Notes: generated by a model not told the origin, from the letters alone. DNA of 64,000 bases from Thermoleophilaceae bacterium (GCA_030447905.1 JAUJNZ010000001.1:305466-369465); one strand, 5' to 3'. Positions 23,078 to 45,616 are shown, numbered from the stretch's first letter. Translations and numbers: made by a program.

Positions 23078-23129
23078 CGAGCCGCGCGCGCTCACGGCCC
23101 GCCTGGCCCGACGGTGGACCGCCCCGCCC

Positions 23130-29222: not shown

Positions 29223-29326
29223 CGCAAGCGGTCCCGGCGCCGGACCGCCCGTGCCGCGGCGCCGGCCTCGCCTCACCGTCAGGCGATCGCGGCCGTCGAG
29301 CCGTGGCGGCTGGCCCGCGGCACGGC

Positions 29327-31698: not shown

Positions 31699-32313
31699 TC
31701 AGGCGCGGCGGCGGAGCCTGAACCCGTCGCGCAGGTAGAGCAACGTTGCCCACACGCTCAGGCCGAGACCGAGCAGCAGCAGCCCGCTGGCGACCCAGGT
31801 CGTCGAGACCATGGCCAAAAAGATCGAGAACATGGTCGGCCAGACTGCCCAGCGCCCGACCATCTTGATCTCGAAGTCGATGCCGCGGCGCAGAGCGAGC
31901 TCGGTTAGGACGAGCATGAAGAGCTCGCGGGCGGCGAGGGCGGCGAGCGCCCAGCGGGGGAGCAGCTCGAAGTGCCAGGACACGACCGCCCCGGCGAGCA
32001 CGAGCAGGCGGTCGGCGACGGGATCGAGCAGCGCCCCCAGCCGGCTGTACTGGCCGGTCAGGCGGGCCAGCATCCCGTCGAGGTAGTCGGTGGCCCCGAT
32101 GAAGGCGTAGAGCAGGGCCGCAGCGGGCGCACGCCCGTCCCCCGAGCTCAGACCCAGGACCAGGAACACCGGTATCAGGGCGAGCCGCATGTAGCCGACG
32201 GCGTTGGGAATCGTCCACGGGCGCAGCGGCTCGCCGCGGCGGGTGGCCTTGGGCAGACCGCCCGAGCGGTCGAGGCCGAGCAGCCGTCGGGCGGTCAGGG
32301 GGCCCTGCGCCAC
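31699..32313 (-). CDS. pgsA: CDP-alcohol phosphatidyltransferase (phosphatidylglycerophosphate synthase-like)
   Basis: CDP-alcohol motif DYLDGMLARLTGQYSRLGALLDPVADR. Multiple TM helices. The 5' end overlaps the proS stop by 19 nt, so the start is uncertain. Confidence 0.8.
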   Translation of the reverse strand: MAQGPLTARRLLGLDRSGGLPKATRRGEPLRPWTIPNAVGYMRLALIPVFLVLGLSSGDGRAPAAALLYAFIGATDYLDGMLARLTGQYSRLGALLDPVADRLLVLAGAVVSWHFELLPRWALAALAARELFMLVLTELALRRGIDFEIKMVGRWAVWPTMFSIFLAMVSTTWVASGLLLLGLGLSVWATLLYLRDGFRLRRRA

Positions 32314-33992
32314 AGCTCGAGCGCCTCCTGCGCCGCTCCCTCGAGGGAGAGAGTCCGGCGCTCACGACCGCGCCGCACCTGGGCCTCGACCTCCCTCGCC
32401 TCGACGCCCTTGCGCCCGACCGTGAGGCGTAGGGGGCAGCCCAGCAGCTCGGCGTCGGCGAACTTCTCCCCCGCGCTGCGCGGGCGATCGTCGAGCAGCA
32501 CGTCGAGGTCCGCGGCCCGCAGCTCGTCGTAGAGCCGCTCGGCCACCGCGAGCGACTCCTCGCCGGCCTTGCCGAGCGCGACGACCTCGACGTCGAAGGG
32601 CGCGAGCCGGCGCGGCCAGGAGATCCCCTGCTCGTCCGCGCTCTGCTCGACGGCCGCGGCGAGGATGCGCGCGAGGCCGATCCCGTAGGAGCCCATCCAG
32701 ACGTGTCGCTCGCTACCGCCCTCGTCGAGGTAGGTCGCCTCGAGCGGCTCCGAGTAGCGGGTCCCGAGCTTGAAGATGTTGCCGACCTCGATCGCCCGCT
32801 CGAGGTGGATCGACGCCCCCGCCGGACAGGTGTCACCGGCCTCGACCGAGCGCACGTCGGCCCACTCGGGCTCGAAGTCGCGGCCGGGCTCGACGCCGCG
32901 CAGGTGGCGGTCGGCCTCGTTGGCGCCGGCCACGAGGCCGCGCAGGTCGCGCACCGCCTCGTCGGCGACGACCGGCACCGGCGCCCCGACGGGCCCGATG
33001 TACCCGGGCACAGAGCGAAACAGTGGTTCGACCTCGTCGGCCTGAGCGGGTCGCGTGGCCTCACCGAGCGCATTGGCGAGCTTGATCTCGTTGAGGCGAT
33101 GGTCGCCGCGAGTGACCACGAGGACGGGCCCGCGTCCACTGGCGATCACCGGGAAGGCCTTGAGCAGGGCGGCGGCGGGGACGCCGAGGCCGCGCGCGAC
33201 GTCATCGATCGTGGTCTGGCCGGGGGTGTCCACCGGCTCGGGCGAGTCGAGGGCGGGCGGGAGTCCATTAACCGGACGCGGCGCCGCGCTCGCCACCTCG
33301 ACGTTAGCCGCGTAGCCCGCCGGCGACAGCGCGACCTCGTTCTCGCCGGCCGGACACGGGGCCATGTACTCGTGAGCGCCGAGGCCGCCCATCATGCCGA
33401 CGTCTGAGGCCACCCGGTGCCACTCGAGCCCGCAGCGATCGAAGACGCGGTCGTAGGCTTCGACGTGGAGCCCGTAGGAGCGGTCGAGGCCCTCGGCGTC
33501 GCGATCGAACGAGTATGAGTCCTTCATGATGAACTCGCGCGTGCGCAGCAGGCCCGCGCGCGGGCGCGGCTCGTCGCGCTCCTTGACCTGGAACTGGTAG
33601 AGGATCTGGGGCAGGTCGCGATAGGAGCGGACCTCGCGGGCCACGTGCCAGGTCAGGGCCTCCTCGTGGGTCATGGCCAGTACGTGCTCGGCGCCCTTGC
33701 GGTCTGAGAGCTTGAGCAGCTCCTCGATCGCATACCGGCCGGTGCGCCGCCACGGATCGGCGGGCTGCAGGACCGGGATGAGCATCTCCTGGGCGCCGAT
33801 TCGGTCGAGCTCCTCGCGGACGATCTGCTCGGCACGGCGGTGACAACGCCAGCCGGCGGGCAGGAAGGTCCACATACCCGTGCCGAGCTGGCGCACCAGG
33901 CCGGCGCGCACTAGCAGCCGGTGGGAGACCGCCTCGGCATCGGCAGGCGGCTCCTTGACGGTGGGCAGGAGGTACGAGGAGAGCCGCGTCAC
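32295..33992 (-). CDS. proS: Proline--tRNA ligase
   Basis: MTRLSSYLLPTVKEPPADAEAVSHRLLVRAGLVRQLGTGMWTFLP, plus class II motifs. Confidence 0.95.
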   Translation of the reverse strand: MTRLSSYLLPTVKEPPADAEAVSHRLLVRAGLVRQLGTGMWTFLPAGWRCHRRAEQIVREELDRIGAQEMLIPVLQPADPWRRTGRYAIEELLKLSDRKGAEHVLAMTHEEALTWHVAREVRSYRDLPQILYQFQVKERDEPRPRAGLLRTREFIMKDSYSFDRDAEGLDRSYGLHVEAYDRVFDRCGLEWHRVASDVGMMGGLGAHEYMAPCPAGENEVALSPAGYAANVEVASAAPRPVNGLPPALDSPEPVDTPGQTTIDDVARGLGVPAAALLKAFPVIASGRGPVLVVTRGDHRLNEIKLANALGEATRPAQADEVEPLFRSVPGYIGPVGAPVPVVADEAVRDLRGLVAGANEADRHLRGVEPGRDFEPEWADVRSVEAGDTCPAGASIHLERAIEVGNIFKLGTRYSEPLEATYLDEGGSERHVWMGSYGIGLARILAAAVEQSADEQGISWPRRLAPFDVEVVALGKAGEESLAVAERLYDELRAADLDVLLDDRPRSAGEKFADAELLGCPLRLTVGRKGVEAREVEAQVRRGRERRTLSLEGAAQEALELWRRAP

Positions 33993-34001
33993 GGCCCGAG
34001 T

Positions 34002-34883
34002 CTACCCGTGCGTCGCCTCGCCGCTCGGGGACTGAAACCCCTCGTTGAGCGCGCCCGACCGCAGGGGCTCCAGATCGATAGCGGTGCGCACGTAGCCGGC
34101 CTCGCGCAGAGCCGTGGCGATCGCCGCCCGGGCCGCTGGGGCGAGCGCGCGCTCGAGGTCGGCCGCCGGAAGCTCGAGCTTGCCGAGGTCCTCGTGGTGG
34201 CGCACGCGCAACACCGGGTAGCCGAGCGCCCGCACCGCGCGCTCGGCGCGATCGACCCGCGCGAGCCTGGCCGGCTCGACGCGCGTTCCGTAGGGCAGGC
34301 GGGAAGCCAGGCACGGGCTGGCGGGCTTCTCGGCGCTGGGCACGCCGAGGCGGCGCGCGAGTGCTCGCACCTCGGCCTTGCCGGCTTCCGCCTCGAGCAG
34401 GGGATGGCGCACCCCGTGCTCGGCGGCCGCGCGCAGCCCGGGGCGCCAGTCGCCGCGGTCGTCGGCGTTCGCCCCGGAGAGCAGGACCGCGAAGCCGCGC
34501 TCGGCGGCGAGCCTCCACAGCTCCCCGTATAGCTCGGTCTTGCAGTGATAGCAGCGGTCGCGAGCGTTGCGGCGGTAGCCCTCACGACCCAGCTCGTCGG
34601 TGGCGATCACCAGATGCTCGACCCCGATCGCCGCAGCCACCCCGCTCGCTCCTTCGAGCTCTCCGGAGGCCAGGGCGGGTGAGACCGCCGTGACCGCGAG
34701 GGCGCGGTCGCCGAGGGCTCGGGCGGCGAGGGCCGCGACCACGGAGGAGTCGACCCCGCCCGAGAAGGCGACCACGGCGCTCTCGAGCTCGGCGAGCGAG
34801 CGCTCGAGCCGCCCGCGCAAGGCGTCGACCGTGAGGTCGCTCGGCTCCCCGCCGGCGACCGGGAGCTCGCGCACCGAGCTCAC
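34002..34883 (-). CDS. larE: ATP-dependent sacrificial sulfur transferase LarE (PP-loop ATPase)
   Basis: GTG at 34883 (GTGA with the larC stop). PP-loop VAFSGGVDSSVV. RDRCYHCKTELY cysteine region. Follows larB-larC. Confidence 0.85.
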   Translation of the reverse strand: MSSVRELPVAGGEPSDLTVDALRGRLERSLAELESAVVAFSGGVDSSVVAALAARALGDRALAVTAVSPALASGELEGASGVAAAIGVEHLVIATDELGREGYRRNARDRCYHCKTELYGELWRLAAERGFAVLLSGANADDRGDWRPGLRAAAEHGVRHPLLEAEAGKAEVRALARRLGVPSAEKPASPCLASRLPYGTRVEPARLARVDRAERAVRALGYPVLRVRHHEDLGKLELPAADLERALAPAARAAIATALREAGYVRTAIDLEPLRSGALNEGFQSPSGEATHG

Positions 34884-36079
34884 GCTCGCTCTTCCTCCGC
34901 GAGCCAGCGCTGTCCGGCGGCCAGCGCCGCGGACCAGATCGACACGGTCGAGCGGCCGGTCCGCTCGGCGGCGCGGGCGCAGTCGTCGTGCTCGGGCGCG
35001 ACGTTGACCACGTCGCCGTCGAGGCGGCCGAGCTTGACCCGCACCGCCTCGCCGGAGACCTCGATGGCCCGCCACTCGCGCTCGAGCTCGACCCGCTCGA
35101 AGCGAGCCACGCGCACTCCGAGCGCGGTCGTCGAGCGCAGCAGCGCCTCCGCCACGGCGGCCTCGCGCTCGGGGCGTACGAGCGCCGAGACGATCACGCC
35201 CGGCCTGCCCTTCTTCATGCCCGCCGGCGTCGTCCACACGTCGAGCGCCCCCGCCGCCGTCGCGCTCTGCGCGGCGTCGGGCACGAGCTCCGGCGAGAGG
35301 TCGTCGAGGTTGGTCTCTACGAGCGACACCGGCTGGGTTGGGGCGCGCGGGGCGGCCTCATCCGCCTCCCCCAGGAGGACGCGCACCACGTTGGGCACGC
35401 GCCCGAGCTCGCGCGCGCCCGCGCCGTAGCCGGTGGCTTCGAGTCGCAGGGCGGGGAGCGGCCCGAAGCCCTCGACGAGCGCGCCGACCAGCGCGGCGCC
35501 GGTGGGGGTCACGAGCTCCTCGTCGCCTTCGACGCCGTGCAACGGCGCGCCCTCGAGCAGCGCGAGGGTGGCGGGAGCGGGCAGCGGCAGGGGTCCGTGC
35601 GCGCTCGCCACCACCCCGCGCGCGACCGGCAGCGGCGAGCAGGCGATTCGCTCCACCCCCAGCGACTCGAGCGCGAGGGCGACTCCGCAGACGTCGGCCA
35701 GCGCGTCGGCGGCCCCGACCTCGTGGAAGGTCACCTCCTCGGGCGCGATGCCGTGCACCCGACCCTCGGCGACGGCGAGCCGGTCGAAGGTCGTGAGCGC
35801 GCGCTCGCGCGCTCGCGGCGGCAGACGCGCGCCCTCGATCAGCTCGCGTACTTCGCGCGGGCCCCGGGGCGGTTGATCGGGCGGCCCGACGACCTCGACC
35901 CGCGCGGCGTCGAGCGGCCCGCGCCGCGCCCGCCCGATCCGCACCTCGAGGTCCTCGATGCCGAGGCGGGCGAGCCCGGACCGGACGAGATCGGCGTCGG
36001 CGCCGGCGTCGAGCAGGGCGCCGAGCAGCATGTCGCCCGCGACGCCGCCCACACAGTCGATGTAGGCCAGCCTGCTCAC
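34880..36079 (-). CDS. larC: Nickel-pincer cofactor nickel insertase LarC (DUF111)
   Basis: GTG at 36079 (GTGA with the larB stop). N-terminus LAYIDCVGGVAGDMLLGALLDAG is typical of LarC. Confidence 0.85.
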   Translation of the reverse strand: MSRLAYIDCVGGVAGDMLLGALLDAGADADLVRSGLARLGIEDLEVRIGRARRGPLDAARVEVVGPPDQPPRGPREVRELIEGARLPPRARERALTTFDRLAVAEGRVHGIAPEEVTFHEVGAADALADVCGVALALESLGVERIACSPLPVARGVVASAHGPLPLPAPATLALLEGAPLHGVEGDEELVTPTGAALVGALVEGFGPLPALRLEATGYGAGARELGRVPNVVRVLLGEADEAAPRAPTQPVSLVETNLDDLSPELVPDAAQSATAAGALDVWTTPAGMKKGRPGVIVSALVRPEREAAVAEALLRSTTALGVRVARFERVELEREWRAIEVSGEAVRVKLGRLDGDVVNVAPEHDDCARAAERTGRSTVSIWSAALAAGQRWLAEEERA

Positions 36080-36855
36080 GCCGCTGGCGCGCTCGCCCGG
36101 GCGATCCGCGCCGCGATCGTGCCCGCCCCGAAGCCGTCGTCGATCCCGACCACCGCGAGCCCGGCCGCGCACGAGGCCAGCATCGCCAACAGAGCCGAGA
36201 GGCCGCCAAAGGCGGCCCCGTAGCCCGCGCTCGTCGGGACGCCGATCACCAGCGCGGCGACGAGCCCGCCGACCACCGAGGCCAGCGCGGCGTCCTGGCC
36301 CGCCACGACGACCACGCAGTGGGCGCGCTCGAGGTCCTCGAGCGCGGTCCCAAGCCGCGCGATCCCGGCCACCCCGATGTCGCGCTGGACCGCCACCTCG
36401 GCCCCGAGCAGGCGCGCGCGGATCTCGGCCTCGCGCACCACCGGTCCGTCGGCGGTCCCGGCGGAGACGATCGCCACCTGCCCGGCGACCGCAGGGACCG
36501 CCCGCGCCACCCACGCCAGGCGGGCGCGTTCGTCGAGCTCGGCCTCGCCCGGGGCGGCTCGGGCTACGGCGGCCCGGGCGGCCTCGTCGGCGCGCGTCAC
36601 GAGCACGCTTCCCACCCCGTCGGCGAGCATCGCCGTGACGATCGCCTCGATCTCCCCGGGCGACTTGCCCTCGCCGAGCACGGCCTCGGGCGCACCCTGG
36701 CGCAGCTCCCGGTGGGTATCCACGCGCGCGAAGCCGAGGTCGCGGAACGGCAGGTGCTGGAGCTCTGAGAGGGCGGCTTGTGCGGCGACCTCCCCCCGCT
36801 CGACCGACTCGAGCAGGGCGAGGAGGTCGGCCGGCGAGGTCGGAGCCGACGTCAC
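36076..36855 (-). CDS. larB: Pyridinium-3,5-biscarboxylic acid mononucleotide synthase LarB (AIR-carboxylase-like)
   Basis: GTG at 36855 (GTGA). FARVDTHRELRQGAPEAVLGEGKS, IVSAGTADGPVVREAE, VVVAGQDAALASVVGGLV...GVPTSAGYG. Confidence 0.85.
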   Translation of the reverse strand: MTSAPTSPADLLALLESVERGEVAAQAALSELQHLPFRDLGFARVDTHRELRQGAPEAVLGEGKSPGEIEAIVTAMLADGVGSVLVTRADEAARAAVARAAPGEAELDERARLAWVARAVPAVAGQVAIVSAGTADGPVVREAEIRARLLGAEVAVQRDIGVAGIARLGTALEDLERAHCVVVVAGQDAALASVVGGLVAALVIGVPTSAGYGAAFGGLSALLAMLASCAAGLAVVGIDDGFGAGTIAARIARASAPAA

Positions 36856-37637
36856 CGGCGCCCCGCCGCCCCGGCCAGCGCGCCGATCGCCGCGCCCACG
36901 CGCTCGGTGAACTCCTGGGGCTCCTCGCCCGCCAGCGGCTCGACGGCAGGGCCGAAGCGGACCTCCGTCCGCCCGCGCCGGGTCACCCCGCGCCCCTTGG
37001 GCATCAACAGCCCCGTTCCGCTCACGTGCACCGGCACCGCCGGCGTGCCCGTCGCCACGCACAGCCGCCCGACCCCGCCGCGCAGGCCCCCGAGGCCGGA
37101 GGTCCGGGTCGCCTGCGGATAGATGAGCACGTTGGACCCGCCGCGCAGGTGCTCGGCGGCGGCGGCCAGCCCGCGCCCCTCGCTCCCGCGGTCGAAGGGA
37201 AAGGTGTTGATCCACAGCGACGCCATCAGCGCGGTGCGGCGGCTCGCGTAGAAGCGATCGCTCGCCGCCCCGACCACGGTTCGCATCCGCCACACGCGCG
37301 GCAGCGCCCATAGGACCAGCGGAGTGTCGACGTCGCTCGAGTGGTTGGGGGCGATCACCGCCGGCTGGGGCGCGTGCAGGAGGTCGTCGGCCCCGCTGAC
37401 CTTCGGGCTCGTGACGACGCGGGTGAGCGGAAACAGCAGCGACTGCTGGAGGCCCTCCCGGGCGAGGGAGGCGCGCCGGCCGCGCAGCCATGGCTGGTCG
37501 GCCACTTCGGCGGCAGCGCTCCAGGGATCGGGCCCGCCGCGGCGGGTGCGCCAGCGCGCGGGCGACCGCGCCGATCCGCCGGTCCCGCCGTCTCGGGGCG
37601 GCCCCGCCAGGCGCTCGAGCAGGCGACCGCTCCTCAC
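36852..37637 (-). CDS. Lysophospholipid/glycerol-phosphate acyltransferase family protein (PlsC-type, HX4D)
   Basis: HX4D block PNHSSDVD, then FPFDRG and IYPQATRT blocks. GTG 37637 overlaps the LarA-like TGA, and the codons between 37505 and 37637 keep high GC3. Alternative GTG at 37505. Confidence 0.75.
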   Translation of the reverse strand: MRSGRLLERLAGPPRDGGTGGSARSPARWRTRRGGPDPWSAAAEVADQPWLRGRRASLAREGLQQSLLFPLTRVVTSPKVSGADDLLHAPQPAVIAPNHSSDVDTPLVLWALPRVWRMRTVVGAASDRFYASRRTALMASLWINTFPFDRGSEGRGLAAAAEHLRGGSNVLIYPQATRTSGLGGLRGGVGRLCVATGTPAVPVHVSGTGLLMPKGRGVTRRGRTEVRFGPAVEPLAGEEPQEFTERVGAAIGALAGAAGRR

Positions 37638-39298
37638 TCGACCTCGCAGTAGAAGAGCGGCGGGCACCCGAAGTGGGTGATCGAGGGATCGCGCCCCACG
37701 ACCTGCTCGGCCATCTCGAGCGCGTCGAGCATCGTGTCGGCCCGGCGAAAGCCCATCCGCCGGCACGCCTCGCGGTCCCCGCCGACGAAGATCACCTCGC
37801 CGACGTGCTCGAGCGCGTGGGCGCCCCAGTACCACATGTAGAAGGGATGGACGCCGTGGTAGGCGTGGGATGTGCGATAGAGGTGGCGATACCACTCGTC
37901 CTCGGCGTAGTCGCGCTCGAAGCGGCGCTCGAGCTCGGCCGGGTCGGTGGTCTCGGCGAGCACCTCCTCGTAGAAGTCGATGTAGGAGGGGTGATGCACC
38001 GGGTGGAAGTCGCGCGGCACGGGATGGGTGAAGATCAGCGCGCCGCCCTCGCGCACGAGCGGTCGTCCCTGGTACAGGTTGAAGAAGTACCCGAGTCCCA
38101 GGCACATGACGAGGATCGGGTTGAGGATCGAGTTGACGTTGTAAGGACCGATGTAGGGAAGCCCGGCGGTGACGACGTCGGACTGTCCCTCGACCCGAAC
38201 CGCCTGCTGCTCGGCGAGGCGCTCGAGCGCCACGGCGTGGGCGGCGTCGACCGCGCCCCCCGTCACCGAGGTGACCGCGTACGGCGCCGACATGCGACTG
38301 AAGGCGGTCCGCCGGGCGCGGACCGGCATCCGGTCGACCGCCCGCTTGACCCCCGCGAACACGACCTGCTCGCGCGGCGTCCACAGGTGCTCGGGCTTGC
38401 CCAGGAAGCGCAGCGGCTCGGCGTACATGGCGTCGTTGAGGGTGGCCTCGAGGTGGAAGACCGGCACCGCCCGCTCGATCAGCTCGCCCTGACGCCCCGA
38501 GGAGTGATGGAGCTCGGAGTGGTCGGGATCCATGAACGAGCGCGAGTGACGAAGCGTGTGCGTCGTGTGGTGGGCGCTGATCGACCGGTAGGTGCCGAGC
38601 CCGATCGCCGCCGACTTCGGTCCGCCCTGCAGGGGCGCGGTGACGAGGTGCACGTACACGAGCAGGTCGGACTCGGCGGCGCGGCGGTTGAGGGTCACCG
38701 GCTCGCCGTGGTCGGTCTCGCCGATGACGACGTTTCCGTCGGGGTCCTCGGCGTCGTGGTTGTAGAGCTCGTCGGGACCGAAGGCGTCGAAGACCGCGGG
38801 TCCGAGCGCGTGTCGCAGCTCGGCCGGGGTCATGCGCCGGTGCAGGGCAAGCGCGGCGATCAGGTGGATGTCGTCGACGCCGGCGCGGTAGGCACGCTCG
38901 AGCACGCGCTCGACGATCCGCCCGCGGACGTCCGGCGCGCGCATCGGCGGCAGCGGCACCGACAGGTCGTCGAAGGCGATGGTGAGCCGCATCCCGGCAC
39001 GCAGGCGCGCGTCGAGCGGGTCGGCGCCGAGCGGCTCGTCGAGCGCGCGGTCGATCGCCGCGTCGAGATCGCCGAGCCCCTTGAGCGGCGGGGGGGCGTG
39101 CACCACCCGCGACCCGACCGGCAGTCGCTCGAGCCGAAAGGACTCGCCGGCGTGGAAAAGGGTCGGTGGCGACTTCACGGTGACCTCGGACACGCTCGCC
39201 CCCCGCTCGGCGGCGGGTCGTCGCCGCGCGGGGCGCCCGTCGGCGCTCGGCGCGGGCGGCTCGACCATCGTCGTTCGCGGCCTCGGGGCGAGCGTCAT
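37634..39298 (-). CDS. LarA-family (nickel-pincer nucleotide dependent racemase/epimerase-like) protein, oversized (554 aa)
   Basis: ATG at 39298 shares its A with the upstream TGA. DUF2088/LarA_N-like region. LIAALALHRRMT, VHLVTAPLQGGPKS and an HH 15-16 residues after the Lys match my recollection of LarA His108, His174, Lys184 and His200. Confidence 0.75.
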   Translation of the reverse strand: MTLAPRPRTTMVEPPAPSADGRPARRRPAAERGASVSEVTVKSPPTLFHAGESFRLERLPVGSRVVHAPPPLKGLGDLDAAIDRALDEPLGADPLDARLRAGMRLTIAFDDLSVPLPPMRAPDVRGRIVERVLERAYRAGVDDIHLIAALALHRRMTPAELRHALGPAVFDAFGPDELYNHDAEDPDGNVVIGETDHGEPVTLNRRAAESDLLVYVHLVTAPLQGGPKSAAIGLGTYRSISAHHTTHTLRHSRSFMDPDHSELHHSSGRQGELIERAVPVFHLEATLNDAMYAEPLRFLGKPEHLWTPREQVVFAGVKRAVDRMPVRARRTAFSRMSAPYAVTSVTGGAVDAAHAVALERLAEQQAVRVEGQSDVVTAGLPYIGPYNVNSILNPILVMCLGLGYFFNLYQGRPLVREGGALIFTHPVPRDFHPVHHPSYIDFYEEVLAETTDPAELERRFERDYAEDEWYRHLYRTSHAYHGVHPFYMWYWGAHALEHVGEVIFVGGDREACRRMGFRRADTMLDALEMAEQVVGRDPSITHFGCPPLFYCEVE

Positions 39299-40446
39299 CA
39301 CTCCGTGCGCAGGTCGAAGACCGTCCTGACCTGGCCCGAGCGGGCCGCCCGCGGGGCCTCCGCGAGCGCGCGAGAGTGGTCGCTCAGATGCCAGCCGTCG
39401 GCCACGAGCCGCCCGGTCCCCAGCCGACCGGCGAGGTCGATCGCCGCGGGGAAGTCGCCGCGGTAGCCATAGGCGCCGCGCAGCTCGAGCTCTCGCTGCC
39501 ACGCGAGCGAGAGGTCGGCGCGCACCTGCCCGGGCATACCCACGAGCACGACCGTACCGCGCGGGCGCGTGACCGTCACCGCCGCCTCGAGCGAATCGCC
39601 GCTGCCGACGCAGTCGAGCACGCGATCGAGGCCGCCGAGCAGGAGCTCGCGCCCGAGGTGGCCGACGAGCCTCCGGGCGCCGGTCAGCCGCGCCGCCTCG
39701 ACCGGCAGCTGCTCGGGCGCACAGGTGTGGTCGGCGCCGAGGCGGCGCGCGGCGTGCGCCTGGGCGGGGTGCTTTGCCGTGCACAGTACGACGGCATCCG
39801 GCGCGAGCTCACGCAGCGCCGCCACGCAGAGGAGCCCGATCGTCCCCGCCCCGATCACGCCCACCGCCTCGCCCGGACTCGGCGCCGCCGCCCGCGCGGC
39901 GTTGAGCGCGCACGCCAGCGGCTCGACCAGCACCGCATCCTCGTCGGAGAGCTCGGCCGGCACGGCGTGCAGCTGCGAGTGGTGGGCCACGAGCCCCTCG
40001 CTCCAGCCCCCGCCGGTGTCGCGGCAGTAGCCGATCTGCAGGCCCGCCGAGACCTCTCCTTCGACGGTATTGCGACACAGGGCCGTGAGTCCCTCCGCGC
40101 ACTCCGTGCACTCGGGCTCGGCGCCTCGCACCACGCACGAGAGCGCCGGCTCGACTACGACCCTCTCACCACGACGCTCCCCACCCGCGATCTCGCCGAC
40201 GATCTCGTGACCGGGGACGAACGGCGTCGAGGTGAGCGTCCCCAGGTACGGCGACGCCGAGCCCGAGAAGAGCGCCTGATCCGATCCGCAGATGCCGCTC
40301 AGCCTGGGGCGGACCGCGAGCCAGTCGGCGTTCGGTGGCCGTGGGGGCGCCATCCGACGCAGCGTGAGACCCCCCTCCCCCGCCCGGCGGGAGACCCGCG
40401 CCGCCGCGTGCCGCGCCACGGACGGCGTGTACTCGAGGGCGAGCAT
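39298..40446 (-). CDS. Zinc-dependent medium-chain alcohol dehydrogenase family protein
   Basis: GICGSDQALFSG...PGHEIVGEI catalytic Zn site. Cys cluster CVVRGAEPECTECAEGLTALC. Rossmann motif VIGAGTIGLL. Confidence 0.85.
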   Translation of the reverse strand: MLALEYTPSVARHAAARVSRRAGEGGLTLRRMAPPRPPNADWLAVRPRLSGICGSDQALFSGSASPYLGTLTSTPFVPGHEIVGEIAGGERRGERVVVEPALSCVVRGAEPECTECAEGLTALCRNTVEGEVSAGLQIGYCRDTGGGWSEGLVAHHSQLHAVPAELSDEDAVLVEPLACALNAARAAAPSPGEAVGVIGAGTIGLLCVAALRELAPDAVVLCTAKHPAQAHAARRLGADHTCAPEQLPVEAARLTGARRLVGHLGRELLLGGLDRVLDCVGSGDSLEAAVTVTRPRGTVVLVGMPGQVRADLSLAWQRELELRGAYGYRGDFPAAIDLAGRLGTGRLVADGWHLSDHSRALAEAPRAARSGQVRTVFDLRTE

Positions 40447-40447
40447 G

Positions 40448-42790
40448 TCAGGCGCCGGCCGCGACCGGCGCCGGCGGACGGGTCCGGGCGCCGGGCTCGG
40501 TGGCCCAGGTCAGCACCGGCCACCCCCGCCGCCGGGCCTCGCGGGCGAGGCGGAAGTCCGGATTGACCGAGTGGGCATGGCCGACGACCTCCAGCAGCGG
40601 CAGGTCGGAGACGCTGTCGCCGTAGGCGTGGCAGTCCGCGAGCGCGACCCCGCGGTCGGTCGCCAGGCGCGTGGCCAGGGCGGCGCGGGCCTCCGCGGTC
40701 AGCGGCGGCTCCTCGAGCTCGCCGGTGAAGACCCCGAGCTCCTCGCGCAGCCGCGCGGCGACGAGCTCGTCGCCCAGCGCCCGGAGGGGCGCGACCAGGA
40801 AGTCGACCGCGCCGGTCAGGAGGACGATCCGGTCGCCGCGGCGGCGATGGGCGCGGATGCGGCGCACCGCGGCCTGCTGGAGGCGGGGGAGGATGTGCTC
40901 CTCGAGCGCGCTCTCGGCCTCGGCGCGCAGCTCGGCGGCCGGCAGACCGCGGTAGGTTCGGTAGAAGTCCCGGTTGAAGGCCGCACGCGACCGGCGGTCG
41001 GCGAGCGCCCAGCCGGGCGCCCGCGCGGCCACCCCGGCTCCCCACACGACCCGGTCGAGCCCCGGCATGCCGCGCGAGCGCAACCACGCGTAGAAGTGGG
41101 CGACCGTCGTGTCGACGACCACGCCCTCGACATCGAAGAACGCGAGCGCGGGGGGGCCGTCCGGCAGCGCTCCGTCCCCCGACCCGAGCGCCCGGGCGGG
41201 ACCGGTCGCGCGCGGGGGGCGGGGAGGGCGCACGAGCTCGCGTAGGGCTGGGAGGTGGACCCGATCCAGGTAGTCGGTCCAGTCGATCGCCGCCGTGTCG
41301 AAGGACAGCCGCTCCCGGTCGGAGGGCGACAGGCGACCGAGCAGCTCGCACGTGCCGCGATCGTCGAAAATGCAGTCGAGCTCGACGTAGGGACCGTATA
41401 TCTCGGCGAGGCGTCGCAGCCGCTCGACCCGGCGGCGCTCGACGTGCAGACGCCGCTCGGCGTCGTCGACGCGAGGCACCGGGACGCGGTCGAGCAGGCG
41501 CCGACCCGTGCGCAGCGCGCGCTCGGCGCGGTCGAGGGCTCCCATCACTCGCGCCCCCGACGCGTAGCGCATGTCGGAGAACTCGATCGGGGCGCCGTCC
41601 TCGTCGGGCAGCGGGCGGGCCCGGAAGTGGTCGGTGACCGTCCGGCTGATCTCTGCGAGCGTGATCGGGTTACGCCTCCCGCTCGCGAGCGCGAGCGTCC
41701 GCGGGCTCGGCATCGGCGGATGCGCCGCCGCGACGACGCAGGCGTTGGCCACTAGATCGACGGGCACGACGTCGAGCACGCCGGAGGGGTTGCCGGGCAG
41801 GCGTGAGGCCAGGCCGCCCGCATACGCCAGGATGATCGGGTCGGCGACCTTGATGCCCTCGAGCCATCCCGGTCTTGGCTCGTGCAGGGCCGACTCGATG
41901 ATCGCCGGACGCACGAACGTGAGCGAGGTCAGGTTCTGGGCGCACAGGGCCCGCTCGGCGAGGCCCTTCGACAGCGAGTAGCCGTCGGCCCAGCCGAGCG
42001 TACGGCAGCGGCGCCGCCCGCGCTCGACGAGCTCCGACGCGATCCAGGCGCGGCGCAGCTCCTCGGCGCGACGACCGACGGGCAGCGAGCCGGCCGGACC
42101 GAGCTCCTGCCTCGCCTCGCGAGCGAAGCGCTCCTGGTGGTCGGGCAGGCGGGACTCGGCATCGAGGTCGCGCCGCCACGCGCGCGCCGCGTCGAGCTCT
42201 GAGTCGAGATCGAGCTCGGGCTCCTCGGGCGACTCCCCGGAGGGTCGCTCGAGCACGAGCCCGGTGCGGTTGCCCGCCGCGTACGCGGTGGAGACATGCA
42301 CGAGCGCGGGCTCTGCGGCCCCGCTGGCGCGGGCACCCGCCCGCAGGGCCTCGACCAGCCGCAGCGCCCCGAGTGCGTTCATATCGATGATCTCGTCGAG
42401 GGGCTGCTCGAAGGAGACCGAGGCCGCGCAGTGGATCGCCACGTCGATCCCGCCGAGCGCGTCGTCGCCCTCGGGCCGCCCAAGCGCGTCGGCCGTGAAG
42501 TCACCGGCGAGGGCACGCAGGCGCCCGGCCGCGAGCGCGCTGTCGGCCGACTTGCGGACGTGGTCGAACGCGTCGCTCGCGAGGACGTCGGAGCGCAGGC
42601 GCTCGAGCGCCCCCTCGTCGTCGCCGGCCCGGAGCACAAGCCGGATCTCGCGCAGATCGGAGGCTTCTCGGAGGAGGACGCCGAGCACTGCCTTGCCGAG
42701 AAAGCCCGACGCCCCGGTCAAGAGGAGGGTCCGGCCCGCGAGCCGCCCGGCGATCGTCTCCTGGTCGCTCCCCGTCACCGCTTTGCGCAC
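40448..42790 (-). CDS. Fusion protein: fatty acyl-CoA/ACP reductase (NAD_binding_4 + sterile-like region) + C-terminal HAD-IB (SerB-like) hydrolase domain
   Basis: LLLTGASGFLGKAV, YSLSKGLAE (YxxxK), IYGPYVELDCIFDD. HAD motifs FFDVEGVVVD ... LLTGAVDF ... YGDSVSDLPLL. The track start 42907 overlaps tetR and crosses low-GC3 palindromic DNA, so I prefer GTG 42790 (alternative 42778). Confidence 0.75.
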   Translation of the reverse strand: MRKAVTGSDQETIAGRLAGRTLLLTGASGFLGKAVLGVLLREASDLREIRLVLRAGDDEGALERLRSDVLASDAFDHVRKSADSALAAGRLRALAGDFTADALGRPEGDDALGGIDVAIHCAASVSFEQPLDEIIDMNALGALRLVEALRAGARASGAAEPALVHVSTAYAAGNRTGLVLERPSGESPEEPELDLDSELDAARAWRRDLDAESRLPDHQERFAREARQELGPAGSLPVGRRAEELRRAWIASELVERGRRRCRTLGWADGYSLSKGLAERALCAQNLTSLTFVRPAIIESALHEPRPGWLEGIKVADPIILAYAGGLASRLPGNPSGVLDVVPVDLVANACVVAAAHPPMPSPRTLALASGRRNPITLAEISRTVTDHFRARPLPDEDGAPIEFSDMRYASGARVMGALDRAERALRTGRRLLDRVPVPRVDDAERRLHVERRRVERLRRLAEIYGPYVELDCIFDDRGTCELLGRLSPSDRERLSFDTAAIDWTDYLDRVHLPALRELVRPPRPPRATGPARALGSGDGALPDGPPALAFFDVEGVVVDTTVAHFYAWLRSRGMPGLDRVVWGAGVAARAPGWALADRRSRAAFNRDFYRTYRGLPAAELRAEAESALEEHILPRLQQAAVRRIRAHRRRGDRIVLLTGAVDFLVAPLRALGDELVAARLREELGVFTGELEEPPLTAEARAALATRLATDRGVALADCHAYGDSVSDLPLLEVVGHAHSVNPDFRLAREARRRGWPVLTWATEPGARTRPPAPVAAGA

Positions 42791-42854: not shown

Positions 42855-43490
42855 GTGAGCTCCGCCGCCTCCATCCCCCTCCGTCCCGCCTCCTCGCGGG
42901 ATCTCATCCTGCTCGCAGCCCGCGCCGAGTTCGCCGATCACGGCTTCGACGGAGCGCGGCTGCAGGCCATCGCCGCCCGGGCAGGGGTACGCCACCCGAC
43001 GCTGCTCTACCACTTCGAGTCGAAGGAGCTGCTCTACCGCGCGGTGATCGAGTCGGTCGTGGGCGACTGGGCGGTCGAGACCGAAGCCGCGATCTCGACC
43101 GGCCTGCGCGGCTTCGACCAGGTCGCCGCGCTCGTCGACGCCGGCTTTCGGTTCTTCGAGCGAAACCGGGACTTCGTGCGCATCGTCCGACGCGAGGCCA
43201 TCGAGGGGGGCGGGCGCATGGAGGCCCAGATGGCCGAGTTCGTACGGCCGTTCCTCGAGGACGCCGTGCGGTTTCTGCGCCGCGAGATGCGCGGTGGGCG
43301 CCTGCGCCGCCACGACCCGCTCGAGCTGATGCAAGTGATCTACGGCGCCGTCTTCACCTACTTCTCGGACGCGCGCTTTCGCGCCAACCTCACCGGCGAG
43401 GACCCCCTGGACGCTCGGGCGCTGCGGCGGCACGAGCGAGCGCTGATGAAGCTGCTGGGGGCCGCGCTCGAGCCGGCGACGGGTTCGTGA
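42855..43490 (+). CDS. TetR/AcrR-family transcriptional regulator
   Basis: N-terminal HTH RDLILLAARAEFADHGFDGARLQAIAARAGVRHPTLLYHFESKELLY. Confidence 0.9.
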   Translation: MSSAASIPLRPASSRDLILLAARAEFADHGFDGARLQAIAARAGVRHPTLLYHFESKELLYRAVIESVVGDWAVETEAAISTGLRGFDQVAALVDAGFRFFERNRDFVRIVRREAIEGGGRMEAQMAEFVRPFLEDAVRFLRREMRGGRLRRHDPLELMQVIYGAVFTYFSDARFRANLTGEDPLDARALRRHERALMKLLGAALEPATGS

Positions 43491-44172: not shown

Positions 44173-44925
44173 TCAATCCGCCCGCGCGAAAACGACCACG
44201 TTGTCGCGGTAGTGCCCCCGTGAAGCATCGAACGAGCCGCCGCAGGTGATGAGCCGCAACGTCGGCTTCTGTGTGCGCGAGTAGACGCGCTCGGTAGGGA
44301 AGTGACGCTTCGGGTAGCGATGGCGCTCCATCACGGAGAAGCTCGCGCGCGAGCCGTCGCGGTGGACGATCCGCACGCGGTCTCCCGGCCGAAGCTGACG
44401 CAGGCGGTAGAAGACGGCAGGTCCACCGTTGGCGGCCACGTGCCCGACGATCACCGCGGTGCCTCGGCGTCCGGCCTTGGCCCCGCCCGACCACCAGCCG
44501 GCCTGGGAGGCCGAACCGGGAACCTGGAGCGTGTCGTCGCCGTTCTTGCCGAGGCGTATCACCGGCGCGCGCACGCCGATGGCGGGAATCGATATCCGAG
44601 CTATCGCGTCGCCGAAGGCGGGCCGATGCCCCGGTGCCAGCCGCTGGCGAGGTTTCTCTTCGGCAGGGGGCTTCGGCCGTTCCCTCGGTTTTTGCCTCTC
44701 GCGTCGAGGCGGCTTTGAGCGCGGACGGTCCTCCTGGTAGCGCAAGGGAAGCGGCGCCTCGGCGACAGCTCCGAGTGCAGGCGACTTGGCGCGGGGCGGC
44801 GGCTCGGGGGAGACCGCGAGGACCCAGAGCAGGACGGCGCCGCCGAGCGACGCCGCCGCGGCAGCCAGCGCGCGCGTGCGGTGGCGCCGGATGGACCCGG
44901 CGACCGACCGGAGCCTCTCGCTCAC
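44173..44925 (-). CDS. Class F-type sortase
   Basis: N-terminal TM, Pro/Lys/Arg-rich linker. IPAIGVRAPVIRLG, His VIVGHV, catalytic Cys TLRLITCGG, Arg HYRDNVVV. The GTG directly abuts the TAA of the upstream substrate gene. Confidence 0.8.
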   Translation of the reverse strand: MSERLRSVAGSIRRHRTRALAAAAASLGGAVLLWVLAVSPEPPPRAKSPALGAVAEAPLPLRYQEDRPRSKPPRRERQKPRERPKPPAEEKPRQRLAPGHRPAFGDAIARISIPAIGVRAPVIRLGKNGDDTLQVPGSASQAGWWSGGAKAGRRGTAVIVGHVAANGGPAVFYRLRQLRPGDRVRIVHRDGSRASFSVMERHRYPKRHFPTERVYSRTQKPTLRLITCGGSFDASRGHYRDNVVVFARAD

Positions 44926-45483: not shown

Positions 45484-45523
45484 GATTCTCTCCCCCTCGA
45501 TCTCCTCCGGTGTCGGCGGAAAC

Positions 45524-45551
45524 CTACCCAAACTCGAGCTTTCTTGGGTAG
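45524..45551 (-). terminator. Hairpin downstream of ispG (8-bp stem), followed by GTTTCC on the gene strand
   Basis: CTACCCAA-gaaagctcgagt-TTGGGTAG on the minus strand, 66 nt after the ispG stop. The T tract is weak. Confidence 0.3.
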
Positions 45552-45616
45552 CAGGCAACGAGACATGCACGCCGCCGTGCACGCACGCTGGCCCGGAAGT
45601 CCTGCGACCTGCGGCG

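What the first reader, a model, noticed from the sequence alone, without database searches (positions are those of the whole stretch)
37634..39298. LarA homologue about 130 aa longer than the lactate racemase prototype but apparently retaining the NPN-tethering and catalytic residues
Three features are visible in the translation: LIAALALHRRMT (a His-Arg as in the LarA His108 region), VHLVTAPLQGGPKS (His then GGxK), and HH 15-16 residues after that Lys. From memory of the L. plantarum LarA structure, His108 and His174 are the catalytic bases, Lys184 tethers NPN and His200 ligates Ni, and the spacing here is nearly identical. The extra length lies mostly in the C-terminal half, which is rich in His/Tyr/Trp (HPVPRDFHPVHHPSYIDFY, WYRHLYRTSHAYHGVHPFYMWYWGAH). 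That could form a different and larger substrate pocket.
Basis: partly seen in the sequence, partly recalled or inferred. Interest (0 to 1): 0.65.

Follow-up and report, generated by a model that had tools for sequence, protein, structure and literature searches.

The report
Nickel-cofactor enzyme in ether-lipid-type operon
This gene is a long relative of lactate racemase from an already named but functionally unsolved family, and the same family turns out to include the unexplained elbC gene of the myxobacterial ether-lipid operon, which points to a nickel-cofactor step in lipid synthesis rather than hydroxy-acid racemisation.

Summary
The gene is real (minus strand, 37634-39298) and is a LarA homologue. 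It passes NCBIfam's curated cut-off for the LarAH14/15/16 family and is 54% identical, without gaps, to Frankia LarAH14. That protein was purified in 2020 and showed no activity in any of seven reactions tested.

His108, Lys184 and His200 map to H153, K228 and H244, which are invariant. The proposed His174 (H217) is wrong: LarA His174 aligns to V219, and H217 is a subclade-specific replacement of a conserved Asn. The carboxylate binders Arg75 and Lys298 are also lost.

The gene is the third of seven translationally coupled genes: FAR-HAD fusion, Zn-ADH, LarAH, acyltransferase, larB, larC, larE. The FAR-HAD/LarAH/acyltransferase core recurs in 65/66 to 77/77 related loci.

The sister group 15 contains MXAN_1529. 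That is elbC, the "unknown function" gene of the Myxococcus xanthus ether-lipid operon, whose other parts (HAD, FAR and acyltransferase domains) match this operon's genes.

The best reading is an ElbC-type nickel-pincer enzyme doing a hidden-redox step on a lipid-linked, non-carboxylate alcohol. The exact reaction is inferred, not shown.

The parts
37634..39298 (-). LarAH14/15/16-family (ElbC-type) LarA homologue. It is 554 aa from ATG 39298; alternative starts are 39268 (544 aa) and 39193 (519 aa).
   Evidence: Lar_N E 7e-33; NF052592 813.7 bits against a cut-off of 740, covering profile positions 2-520 of 520; 54% identity, gap-free, to Frankia LarAH14; 48% identity over the full length to the ElbC-position genes of myxobacterial elb operons. 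AF2 pLDDT 83; best fold match is 9q3k.
38966..38971 (-). D110-D111. D111 is the LarA Asp72 equivalent (binds the cofactor ribose).
   Evidence: HMMER alignments to 5HUQ and 9Q2U. Invariant in 223 relatives.
38957..38959 (-). V114, at the position of LarA Arg75 (binds the NPN phosphate and the substrate carboxylate). The Arg is lost.
   Evidence: Leu or Val in all close relatives. The published group 14 table gives L/I.
38837..38842 (-). H153-R154 (the LHRR motif). H153 is the LarA His108 equivalent and the one canonical catalytic His that is retained.
   Evidence: Invariant.
38642..38650 (-). H217-L218-V219 at the end of strand 212-219. V219 aligns with LarA His174.
   Evidence: profile alignment; secondary structure; position 217 is N83/H27/S3 and position 219 is N83/V24 in group 14; both are N110/110 in group 15.
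38615..38626 (-). GGPK, aa 225-228. K228 is the LarA Lys184 equivalent (the NPN thioamide tether).
   Evidence: K in 223/223.
38567..38572 (-). H243-H244. H244 is the LarA His200 / LarASp His211 equivalent (Ni ligand).
37847..37876 (-). R475...H478...H481...H484 (YRTSHAYHGVHPF). This is homologous to LarASp YRYAHAFHPFHGF, whose His401 lines the ligand site.
   Evidence: alignment; published active-site residues. R475, H481 and H484 are invariant in 223 relatives.
38129..38143 (-). Y386-N387-V-N-S390 (the PYNVNS motif). Y386 aligns with LarASp Tyr307. The LarA Tyr294/Lys298 region is replaced.
   Evidence: pLDDT is below 50 for residues 384-388, so this is probably a flexible loop.
40448..42790 (-). 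[quoted passage not shown] The start is uncertain (GTG 42790 or 42778, or ATG 42874 or 42907).
   Evidence: PDB 7eoz fatty acyl-CoA reductase E 6e-60. The FAR part matches the N-terminus of ElbD (E 2e-33) and the HAD part matches ElbB (37% identity). Present upstream in 65/66 loci.
39298..40446 (-). Zn-dependent medium-chain (polyol-type) dehydrogenase. Its stop codon overlaps the LarAH start (TGATG).
   Evidence: Present in 54/79 related loci. Fused to LarAH in P0035.
36852..37637 (-). PlsC/AGPAT-family acyltransferase with an HX4D motif (NHSSDVD). Its GTG start overlaps the LarAH stop (GTGA).
   Evidence: Immediately downstream in 77/77 loci. Fused to LarAH in P0109. Weak match to the acyltransferase domain of ElbD.
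36076..36855 (-). larB (NPN biosynthesis carboxylase/hydrolase).
   Evidence: NF033503 223 bits against a cut-off of 175. GTGA overlap with the preceding gene.
34880..36079 (-). larC (CTP-dependent nickel insertase, with LarC1 and LarC2 fused).
   Evidence: Pfam Ni_insertion E 5e-125. TIGR00299 and NF052512. GTGA overlap.
34002..34883 (-). larE (ATP-dependent sulfur transferase).
   Evidence: TIGR00268 300 bits against a cut-off of 150. GTGA overlap.
42855..43490 (+). Divergently transcribed TetR-family regulator, the probable operon repressor.
   Evidence: A homologue sits in the same divergent position in 49 of 83 related loci; also seen in L001.

Best explanation
The gene encodes an ElbC-type member of the LarAH14/15/16 branch of the lactate-racemase superfamily. 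It most likely binds the nickel-pincer nucleotide (NPN) made by the larB, larC and larE genes in the same seven-gene, translationally coupled operon.

It probably does not racemise a free 2-hydroxy acid. It most likely performs a redox-neutral (hidden-redox) hydride-transfer step on a secondary alcohol of a lipid-linked, probably phosphorylated, glycerol-type intermediate. The pathway partners are a fatty acyl-CoA reductase fused to a HAD phosphatase, a Zn-dehydrogenase and an AGPAT-like acyltransferase. Together these look like an actinobacterial, split version of the myxobacterial elbA-E ether-lipid operon.

Shown here:
- family membership and the LarA fold
- conservation of the cofactor-binding residues and one catalytic His
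- loss of His174, Arg75 and Lys298
- operon structure and its conservation across related loci
- homology of each core gene to an elb component
- the identity of elbC (MXAN_1529) with LarAH group 15

Inferred:
- that NPN is actually bound
- that the pathway product is an ether or other fatty-alcohol-derived glycerolipid
- the chemical step

My preferred step is as follows. NPN takes the hydride from glycerol C2-H, with His153 as the base. It delivers the hydride to the carbon derived from the FAR-made fatty aldehyde, held as a hemiacetal or oxocarbenium on the sn-1 oxygen. This gives 1-O-alkyl-dihydroxyacetone phosphate. The dehydrogenase then reduces it, the acyltransferase acylates it, and the HAD domain dephosphorylates it. 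Simple C2 inversion of an acyl- or alkyl-glycerol phosphate is the main alternative step.
For: Family and fold:
- NF052592 scores 813.7 bits against a cut-off of 740.
- 54% identity, gap-free, to Frankia LarAH14.
- AF2 model pLDDT 83, TM 0.83 to 9q3k and 0.72-0.78 to LarA structures.

Cofactor:
- D111, H153, K228 and H244 align to LarA Asp72, His108, Lys184 and His200. They are invariant in 223 relatives.
- larB, larC and larE pass their curated cut-offs and are joined to the operon by GTGA overlaps.

Not a hydroxy-acid enzyme:
- Arg75 is replaced by Val, the His174 position by Val, and Lys298 by Asn.
- Frankia LarAH14 was inactive on seven reactions.

Pathway context:
- Acyltransferase downstream in 77/77 loci, FAR-HAD upstream in 65/66, Zn-ADH in 54/79.
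- Natural fusions exist: ADH+LarAH (P0035) and LarAH+acyltransferase (P0109).
- The published group 14 context is the same.

Link to elb:
- MXAN_1529 is listed as LarAH group 15.
- elbABCDE corresponds to MXAN_1531 to MXAN_1527, so elbC is MXAN_1529.
- elbC is described as having unknown function, and elbD is needed for alkyl and vinyl ether lipids.
- Anaeromyxobacter and myxobacterial loci show SDR, HAD, LarAH, then a [FAR-ACS-ACP-AT] protein, then SDR.
- The window LarAH is 48% identical to those ElbC-position genes. The window FAR matches the N-terminus of ElbD (E 2e-33), the HAD matches ElbB (E 4e-20), and the acyltransferase matches the ElbD acyltransferase domain (E 1e-5).
- An alkyl-DHAP synthase homologue also lies in the window.
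Against: - No experiment links any member of groups 14 or 15 to a reaction. The review reports insertion mutants of elbA, elbB, elbD and elbE but none of elbC.
- The operon lacks the acyl-CoA synthetase and ACP domains of ElbD. It has a Zn-ADH where the elb operon has SDR-type ElbA and ElbE.
- The acyltransferase match to ElbD is weak (E 1e-5, 87 aa).
- larBCE are next to the cluster in only 3 of 83 related loci. I could not check whether the other genomes, or M. xanthus, encode them elsewhere.
- Most actinobacteria carrying this cluster are not known to me as ether-lipid producers.
- The AGPS gene in the window is not linked to the cluster in any other locus (0/83).
- The proposed hydride shuttle has no direct support. 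I could not measure distances in the model because no coordinates were available.
Confidence: 0.55

Rival explanations
1. This is a conventional two-histidine LarA-type racemase or epimerase of a larger 2-hydroxy acid, for example a 2-hydroxy fatty acid, with an enlarged pocket built from the C-terminal insertions.
For: It has the LarA fold and the cofactor residues. A His (H217) lies 11 residues before the tethering Lys in this subclade. Every LarA homologue characterised so far acts on 2-hydroxy acids.
Against: H217 is Asn in 83/113 close and 110/110 group-15 relatives, and it aligns two residues before the His174 position. Arg75 and Lys298, which hold the carboxylate, are replaced by Val and Asn. 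Frankia LarAH14 showed none of the seven activities tested. The gene context contains no hydroxy-acid enzymes.
Confidence: 0.1
2. It is a stereo-inverting epimerase of the glycerol C2 hydroxyl of a lysophosphatidate-type intermediate (1-acyl- or 1-alkyl-glycerol phosphate). A residue from the C-terminal domain (Tyr386, His481 or His484) replaces His174 as the second acid/base. The downstream acyltransferase traps the inverted product.
For: The chemistry would be the same as in LarA. The cofactor residues and His153 are retained. New His and Tyr residues that are invariant align with the ligand-lining residues of LarASp. The acyltransferase is always adjacent and is sometimes fused. A racemase equilibrium needs a trapping step.
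Against: No lipids with inverted glycerol configuration are known to me from these taxa. The constant presence of a FAR domain is not explained. Published reasoning for single-His LarAHs favours one-enantiomer chemistry.
Confidence: 0.2
3. It is a carbohydrate- or sugar-phosphate-processing single-His LarAH, like the solved group 17 enzymes LarASp and LarABw. The lipid-type neighbours would then act on a sugar or polyol moiety.
For: The best sequence and fold matches are 9q2u, 9q3k and 9q3j. It shares the HH and YRxxHAxHxxHxF motifs with them. The Zn-ADH is closest to polyol and inositol dehydrogenases. HAD phosphatases often act on sugar phosphates.
Against: Identity to group 17 is only 20-23%. 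Lys76, Asn185 and His306 of LarASp are not conserved here (Val114, Val219, Pro385). There are no glycolytic or sugar-transport neighbours. Instead a bona fide FAR (7eoz, E 6e-60) and an AGPAT-type acyltransferase are near-universal.
Confidence: 0.1
4. It is a non-catalytic or cofactor-less scaffold subunit of the lipid enzyme complex.
For: In the wider family, about half of 56 diverse representatives have lost His153, Lys228 or His244. Published group 16 lacks the catalytic and NPN residues. Natural fusions suggest a physical complex.
Against: This protein and 223 close relatives keep every cofactor-binding residue. It is translationally coupled to larB, larC and larE.
Confidence: 0.05

Closest known systems
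LarAH14 of Frankia sp. EAN1pec (Franean1_4168), Desguin et al. 2020 group 14; NCBIfam NF052592 'NPN-dependent hydroxyacid isomerase, LarAH14/15/16 family'
   Same: 54% identity without gaps over 396 aa. Same signature residues (D, L/I/V, H, gap, K, H ... N ... D-W-Y-H-L-Y-T). Same gene neighbourhood of acyltransferase, HAD, Zn-ADH and thioester reductase. Above the curated family cut-off.
   Different: This subclade (27 of 113 close relatives) has VHLVTAPLQGGPKS where the family has VN(I/V)NLVxMDGGHKS. That is Asn217 to His and Asn219 to Val. Here larBCE are in the same operon, which is rare among related loci (3/83). The Frankia protein has no known activity.
ElbC (MXAN_1529) of the Myxococcus xanthus elbABCDE ether-lipid operon; LarAH group 15
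   Same: 48% identity over the full length to the ElbC-position genes of Anaeromyxobacter and myxobacterial loci. Shared invariant residues D111, H153, K228, H244, Y386, N387, S390, N393, H425, H436, H472, R475, H481 and H484. The neighbours are homologous to ElbB (HAD) and to the FAR and acyltransferase domains of ElbD.
   Different: In myxobacteria the FAR and acyltransferase domains lie in one 1,480-1,590-aa protein together with ACS and ACP domains, the HAD is a separate gene, and two SDRs flank the operon. Here FAR is fused to HAD, the acyltransferase is separate, a Zn-ADH replaces the SDRs, and ACS and ACP are absent. Some pocket positions differ: D467/W469/H494 here against N/S,T/N in group 15.
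LarASp and LarABw (PDB 9Q2U/9Q3K and 9Q3J), group 17 single-histidine LarA homologues, Gatreddi et al. 2025
   Same: Best sequence matches in the PDB (E 3.5e-30) and best fold matches (TM 0.83). About 500 aa long. Share the tethering Lys, the HH with the Ni ligand, one catalytic His, and the conserved YRxxHAxHxxHxF segment containing their ligand-lining His401. Function is unknown for both.
   Different: Only 20-23% identity. Their Asn185 loop is four residues longer. Lys76, Asn185 and His306 correspond to Val114, a gap or Val219, and Pro385 here. The query has a further insertion of about 46 aa between residues 266 and 367. Their gene context is glycolytic or carbohydrate-related.
Lactate racemase LarA of Lactiplantibacillus plantarum (PDB 5HUQ/6C1W)
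   Same: Two-domain fold (TM 0.72-0.77). The Asp72, His108, Lys184 and His200 equivalents are present. Depends on larBCE.
   Different: His174, Arg75 and Lys298 are not conserved. The C-terminal domain is not alignable by sequence. The protein is about 95-130 aa longer. The context is not lactate-related.

Membership tests
LarA superfamily (DUF2088 / PF09861; NPN-dependent enzymes) | Lar_N domain and two-domain LarA fold | tested here: met
   Pfam Lar_N E 7e-33. AF2 model pTM 0.85. Foldseek gives all 19 hits with E<=0.001 as LarA-family structures, with TM 0.59-0.83.
LarA superfamily (DUF2088 / PF09861; NPN-dependent enzymes) | Lys that tethers NPN (Lys184, GGxK motif) | tested here: met
   K228 aligns to Lys184 of LarA and Lys195 of LarASp. 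Invariant in 223 relatives.
LarA superfamily (DUF2088 / PF09861; NPN-dependent enzymes) | His that ligates nickel (His200) | tested here: met
   H244 lies 16 residues after K228 and aligns to His200 of LarA and His211 of LarASp. Invariant.
LarA superfamily (DUF2088 / PF09861; NPN-dependent enzymes) | Asp72 and first catalytic His (His108) | tested here: met
   D111 and H153. Invariant.
LarA superfamily (DUF2088 / PF09861; NPN-dependent enzymes) | Second catalytic His (His174) | tested here: not met
   The profile alignment places His174 on V219. Pairwise HMMER puts it in a 4-residue gap. The published table shows a gap for group 14. H217 is not conserved.
LarA superfamily (DUF2088 / PF09861; NPN-dependent enzymes) | Carboxylate/phosphate binders Arg75 and Lys298 | tested here: not met
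   Arg75 corresponds to V114. Lys298 corresponds to Asn (N393) in the published group 14 alignment, transferred through the gap-free alignment to Frankia LarAH14.
LarA superfamily (DUF2088 / PF09861; NPN-dependent enzymes) | Genome encodes LarB, LarC and LarE | tested here: met
   All three pass curated cut-offs and lie in the same operon with GTGA overlaps.
LarA superfamily (DUF2088 / PF09861; NPN-dependent enzymes) | Covalently bound Ni-NPN and 2-hydroxy-acid racemase/epimerase activity | not testable with these tools
   This needs protein chemistry. The 54%-identical Frankia LarAH14 showed none of the seven tested activities.
NCBIfam NF052592, LarAH14/15/16 family (Desguin group 14) | Score above the curated equivalog cut-off over the full profile | tested here: met
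   813.7 bits against 740. Residues 36-554 match profile positions 2-520 of 520.
NCBIfam NF052592, LarAH14/15/16 family (Desguin group 14) | Group 14 gene context (COG0204 acyltransferase, COG0560 HAD, COG1063 Zn-ADH, COG3320 reductase) | tested here: met
   All four are present in the operon. The arrangement is conserved in related loci.
Group 17 single-His LarAHs (LarASp/LarABw) | Invariant Asn replacing His174, Lys replacing Arg75, active-site His306/Tyr307/His401 | tested here: not met
   The window protein has Val219, Val114 and Pro385. Only Tyr386 and His484 are shared.
Group 17 single-His LarAHs (LarASp/LarABw) | Glycolytic/carbohydrate gene neighbourhood | tested here: not met
   The neighbours are FAR-HAD, Zn-ADH and an acyltransferase.
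ElbC of the elb ether-lipid operon (LarAH group 15) | Orthology-level similarity to the gene in the ElbC position | tested here: inconclusive
   48% identity over the full length to the ElbC-position genes in L089 and L090. MXAN_1529 itself is listed in group 15. The window protein belongs to sister group 14, so this is the same family but not demonstrably the same function.
ElbC of the elb ether-lipid operon (LarAH group 15) | Neighbours homologous to ElbB (HAD) and to the FAR and acyltransferase domains of ElbD | tested here: met
   tblastn gives FAR E 2e-33, HAD E 4e-20 and acyltransferase E 1e-5.
ElbC of the elb ether-lipid operon (LarAH group 15) | ACS and ACP domains of ElbD, and SDR-type ElbA/ElbE | tested here: not met
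   These are absent from the operon, which has a Zn-ADH instead.
ElbC of the elb ether-lipid operon (LarAH group 15) | Requirement for alkyl/vinyl ether lipid formation | not testable with these tools
   Genetic data exist for elbD, elbE and elbB only.

The most novel reading that the evidence does not exclude
ElbC-type LarA homologues (groups 14 and 15) are the missing ether-bond-forming enzymes of the AGPS-independent aerobic bacterial ether-lipid pathway. They would use the nickel-pincer cofactor to shuttle a hydride from glycerol C2 to the fatty-aldehyde-derived carbon on the sn-1 oxygen, a redox-neutral reductive etherification that yields 1-O-alkyl-DHAP. This would be the first NPN enzyme acting on a lipid and on a non-carboxylate substrate, and it would make bacterial ether-lipid synthesis nickel-dependent.
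Probability: 0.15. Interest if true: 0.9.

Novelty: new member of a known kind. Interest (0 to 1): 0.6.

Why it matters
Two open questions meet in this gene.

The first comes from the nickel-pincer field. It has had LarA homologues with a single catalytic histidine (groups 14, 15 and 17) since 2020, with no substrate. One member, Frankia LarAH14, has been purified and found inactive.

The second comes from the myxobacterial lipid field. It has an ether-lipid operon (elbA-E) whose main route does not need alkyl-DHAP synthase, whose ether-forming chemistry is unknown, and whose elbC gene is still drawn as "unknown function".

The published tables already contain the bridge: MXAN_1529 is listed in LarAH group 15. 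In the searchable literature I found no paper that connects the two fields.

If the link is functional, three things follow:
- It gives a defined substrate class to test on LarAH14/15.
- It predicts that ether-lipid synthesis depends on nickel and on larBCE.
- It extends elb-type lipid clusters to hundreds of actinobacterial species (Thermoleophilia, Acidimicrobiia, Frankia, Rubrobacter).

The operon in this window is the most compact statement of the case, because the pathway genes and the cofactor genes are translationally coupled in one unit.

Tried and rejected
1. Linkage of the window's alkyl-DHAP synthase homologue (27522-29459) to the cluster. It was absent from all 83 related loci and stands alone among unrelated genes. 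I kept it only as a side observation.

2. Contexts of more distant representatives P0133 and P0135. They are stand-alone genes in unrelated neighbourhoods and were uninformative. Archangium L086 and loci L087/L088 show LarAH alone or with only a HAD gene.

3. Literature searches for a function of groups 14 or 15. Nothing was found beyond "unknown function". The wax-ester metagenome paper, the 2026 sponge ether-lipid preprint and the 2026 Nat Chem hydride-shuttle paper do not mention this family.

4. Measuring distances between H217, V219, Y386, H481, H484 and the cofactor site. The model's coordinates are not exposed in the sandbox, so placement rests on alignments and secondary structure only.

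5. Aligning the C-terminal domain to LarA Lp by sequence. Even the family profile gives no significant match there. Only LarASp and LarABw align.

6. Checking whether M. xanthus and the Acidimicrobiia genomes carry larBCE elsewhere.

7. An AGPS-like acyl/alkyl exchange on transiently oxidised acyl-G3P. I considered this as the LarAH step and ranked it low, because that exchange needs the flavin adduct (my own chemical reasoning).

Full report
**1. The observation**

The minus strand carries an ORF that ends at 37634. From the ATG at 39298 it encodes 554 aa. Homology to lactate racemase is not in doubt. Pfam Lar_N scores E 7e-33. NCBIfam NF052592, "NPN-dependent hydroxyacid isomerase, LarAH14/15/16 family", scores 813.7 bits against a curated cut-off of 740, and residues 36-554 cover the whole 520-position profile.

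An AlphaFold2 model built on 28 homologues has mean pLDDT 83 and pTM 0.85. All 19 of its significant matches in the PDB are LarA-family structures.

The start codon is uncertain. ATG 39298 overlaps the stop of the upstream gene (TGATG). The identical public protein P0001 starts at ATG 39268 (544 aa). Family-wide homology, and the Frankia and Acidimicrobium proteins, begin near GTG 39193 (519 aa). Residues 1-26 are disordered in the model. The excess over the 424-aa prototype is therefore about 95-130 aa.

**2. The catalytic residues**

HMMER alignments to 5HUQ (LarA) and to 9Q2U (LarASp), with the single sequence and with a family profile, agree on the following:

| LarA residue | Window residue |
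|---|---|
| Asp72 | D111 |
| His108 | H153 |
| Lys184 | K228 |
| His200 | H244 |

These four are invariant in 113 actinobacterial and 110 myxobacterial relatives.

In the profile alignment LarA His174 falls on position 219, which is Val here. In the pairwise alignment it falls in a four-residue gap. H217 is Asn in 83 of 113 close relatives and in all 110 group-15 proteins. Only the window's own subclade has the remodelled loop VHLVTAPLQGGPKS in place of VN(I/V)NLVxMDGGHKS. That subclade is 27 sequences at 72-100% identity to the window protein.

Arg75 is Val114. By the published group 14 alignment, Lys298 is Asn.

None of this is new. Dataset S2 of Desguin et al. 2020 lists exactly this pattern for group 14. 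Gatreddi et al. 2025 state that groups 14 and 15 lack the His174 equivalent.

**3. Placement among known LarA homologues**

The protein is 54% identical, without a single gap over 396 residues, to Franean1_4168. That is the "LarAH14" protein that was purified and showed none of seven racemase or epimerase activities.

Its closest solved relatives are the group 17 single-histidine enzymes LarASp and LarABw, at E 3.5e-30, TM 0.83 and 20-23% identity. With them it shares:
- the HH pair
- a conserved C-terminal segment, YRTSHAYHGVHPF here and YRYAHAFHPFHGF in LarASp
- Tyr386, which aligns with LarASp Tyr307

In LarASp, His401 of that segment (H484 here) and Tyr307 line the unidentified ligand. The other group 17 hallmarks are absent: Lys76, Asn185 and His306 correspond to Val114, Val219 and Pro385.

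In the wider family, about half of 56 diverse representatives have lost the cofactor residues altogether. This matches published group 16.

**4. The operon**

The gene is the third of seven on the minus strand:

1. A full-length fatty acyl-CoA reductase (PDB 7eoz, E 6e-60) fused to a HAD-IB phosphatase
2. A Zn-dependent polyol-type dehydrogenase
3. The LarA homologue
4. A PlsC/AGPAT-family acyltransferase with an HX4D motif
5. larB
6. larC
7. larE

The junctions are one 1-nt spacer, one TGATG overlap and four GTGA overlaps, so the genes are translationally coupled. A TetR regulator is transcribed divergently.

I compared 83 related loci from Thermoleophilia, Acidimicrobiia, Microthrix, Aquihabitans, Thermomonospora and others. 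At least 580 species representatives carry a relative. The counts were:

| Feature | Loci |
|---|---|
| Acyltransferase immediately downstream | 77/77 |
| FAR-HAD gene upstream | 65/66 |
| Zn-ADH directly upstream | 54/79 |
| Divergent TetR | 49/83 |
| larBCE nearby | 3/83 |

Natural fusions also exist: Zn-ADH+LarAH (P0035) and LarAH+acyltransferase (P0109). The context matches the published group 14 context.

**5. The link to ether lipids**

Published group 15 has the context SDR, HAD and acyl-CoA synthetase, and it comes from Myxococcota. Its members in Dataset S2 include MXAN_1529.

The M. xanthus ether-lipid operon elbABCDE runs from MXAN_1531 (elbA) to MXAN_1527 (elbE). elbC is therefore MXAN_1529. 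A 2022 review describes the five products as follows:
- elbC: a protein of unknown function
- elbB: a HAD phosphohydrolase
- elbD: a FAR-ACS-ACP-AGPAT multidomain protein needed for alkyl and vinyl ether lipids
- elbA and elbE: SDR-type proteins

I fetched three such loci, one from Anaeromyxobacter oryzae and two from myxobacterial metagenome contigs. All show the order SDR, HAD, LarA homologue, then a 1,478-1,593-aa protein with NAD_binding_4, Sterile, AMP-binding, PP-binding and Acyltransferase domains, then SDR.

The matches between the window's proteins and these loci are:

| Window protein | Match in elb loci | Score |
|---|---|---|
| LarA homologue | ElbC-position gene | 48% identity, full length |
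| FAR part | N-terminus of ElbD | E 2e-33 |
| HAD part | ElbB | 37% identity, E 4e-20 |
| Acyltransferase | Acyltransferase domain of ElbD | E 1e-5 (weak) |

Groups 14 and 15 share the whole set of invariant polar residues: D111, H153, K228, H244, Y386, N387, S390, N393, H425, H436, Y439, Y470, H472, R475, H481, H484.

The LarA papers never mention lipids. No paper in the library combines ElbD with "racemase". The only paper combining "ether lipid" with "nickel-pincer" is unrelated. The library is incomplete, however, and the original elb paper is not in it.

**6. How it most likely works**

The evidence shows a protein built to bind NPN. It keeps one acid/base His and has lost the second His and both carboxylate binders. 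It is embedded in a fatty-alcohol and glycerolipid-type operon that is homologous, part by part, to the elb operon.

I infer that it carries out a hidden-redox hydride transfer on a secondary alcohol of a phosphorylated, lipid-linked glycerol intermediate.

My preferred step is a redox-neutral reductive etherification, because it uses every gene once:
1. The FAR domain supplies fatty aldehyde. The review notes an i15:0 aldehyde in wild type but not in elbD mutants.
2. The aldehyde forms a hemiacetal with the sn-1 hydroxyl of glycerol phosphate.
3. His153 deprotonates the C2 hydroxyl, and NPN takes the C2 hydride.
4. NPN returns the hydride to the dehydrated hemiacetal carbon, giving 1-O-alkyl-DHAP.
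5. The Zn-ADH (ElbA or ElbE in myxobacteria) reduces the ketone.
6. The acyltransferase acylates sn-2.
7. The HAD domain removes the phosphate.

[quoted passage not shown] It is inference only.

The main alternative is plain C2 inversion, with a residue of the C-terminal domain as the second base.

**7. Verdict**

The gene is a new member of a known, named and still orphan family.

The added value is the context. The window holds a complete pathway-plus-cofactor operon. The family is identical with ElbC. Together these turn an orphan enzyme into a testable hypothesis about nickel-dependent ether-lipid synthesis.

Noticed in passing
window 27522-29459 (-): A 645-aa FAD-linked oxidase. Its best PDB matches are alkyl-dihydroxyacetone-phosphate synthases (2uuu E 1.2e-89, 4bby E 1.3e-68), far ahead of D-lactate dehydrogenases (E 8e-31). 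The organism therefore probably also has the AGPS route to ether lipids, as M. xanthus does. The gene is not linked to the LarAH cluster in any of the 83 related loci.
   Followed up: partly
P0035 (820 aa), P0109 (791 aa), P0173 (947 aa); proteins: Natural fusions of the LarA homologue with the Zn-dehydrogenase (P0035) and with the acyltransferase (P0109). P0173 is a longer form that I did not characterise. The fusions suggest that these enzymes act on consecutive intermediates or form a complex.
   Followed up: partly
alignment A2: e.g. P0130, P0136, P0141, P0187, P0200, P0261: About half of 56 diverse family representatives (30-50% identity) have lost the His108, Lys184 and His200 equivalents but keep H481, H436, R154 and W489. 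This looks like a cofactor-less branch (published group 16) that may have another role.
   Followed up: partly
window 38642-38650 (aa 217-219) and relatives P0001-P0051: A Thermoleophilia subclade (27 of 113 sequences) has replaced the otherwise invariant Asn217 and Asn219 by His and Val. It has also changed MDGGH to LQGGP next to the tethering Lys. This is a coordinated remodelling of the loop that carries His174 in LarA and Asn185 in LarASp.
   Followed up: partly
window 42855-43490 (+): A divergent TetR-family regulator. It is conserved in the same position in 49 of 83 related loci, and its weak NCBIfam matches include the fatty-acid regulators FasR and FadR. It probably senses a lipid ligand.
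   Followed up: partly
L086 5528-7791 (Archangium sp.) and L087 12104-13537: In some Myxococcaceae the ElbC-type gene is unlinked from elbD. It sits beside a fatty-acid desaturase and FAD-dependent amine-oxidase-like genes (L086), or beside only a HAD gene and an FAD oxidoreductase (L087/L088).
   Followed up: no
window 21372-23326 (-): Two adjacent squalene/phytoene-synthase-family ORFs (E 1e-72 and 9e-69), possibly an HpnC/HpnD-type pair. IspG (GcpE) is at 45617-46927. These are isoprenoid lipid genes in the same neighbourhood.
   Followed up: no
window 44173-45582 (-): A sortase gene, followed by a small protein with a GVDTG C-terminal sorting domain. This looks like a dedicated sortase-substrate pair.
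   Followed up: no
window 32295-33992 (-): Prolyl-tRNA synthetase with an editing domain. It starts about 10 nt after the larE stop, so it may be co-transcribed with the operon.
   Followed up: no
L001 18047-19474: A HAD plus acyltransferase fusion (475 aa) lies 6.5 kb from the LarAH cluster in one genome. It is the reverse pairing of the FAR-HAD fusion and shows that HAD-IB domains recurrently partner with glycerolipid acyltransferases in actinobacteria.
   Followed up: no
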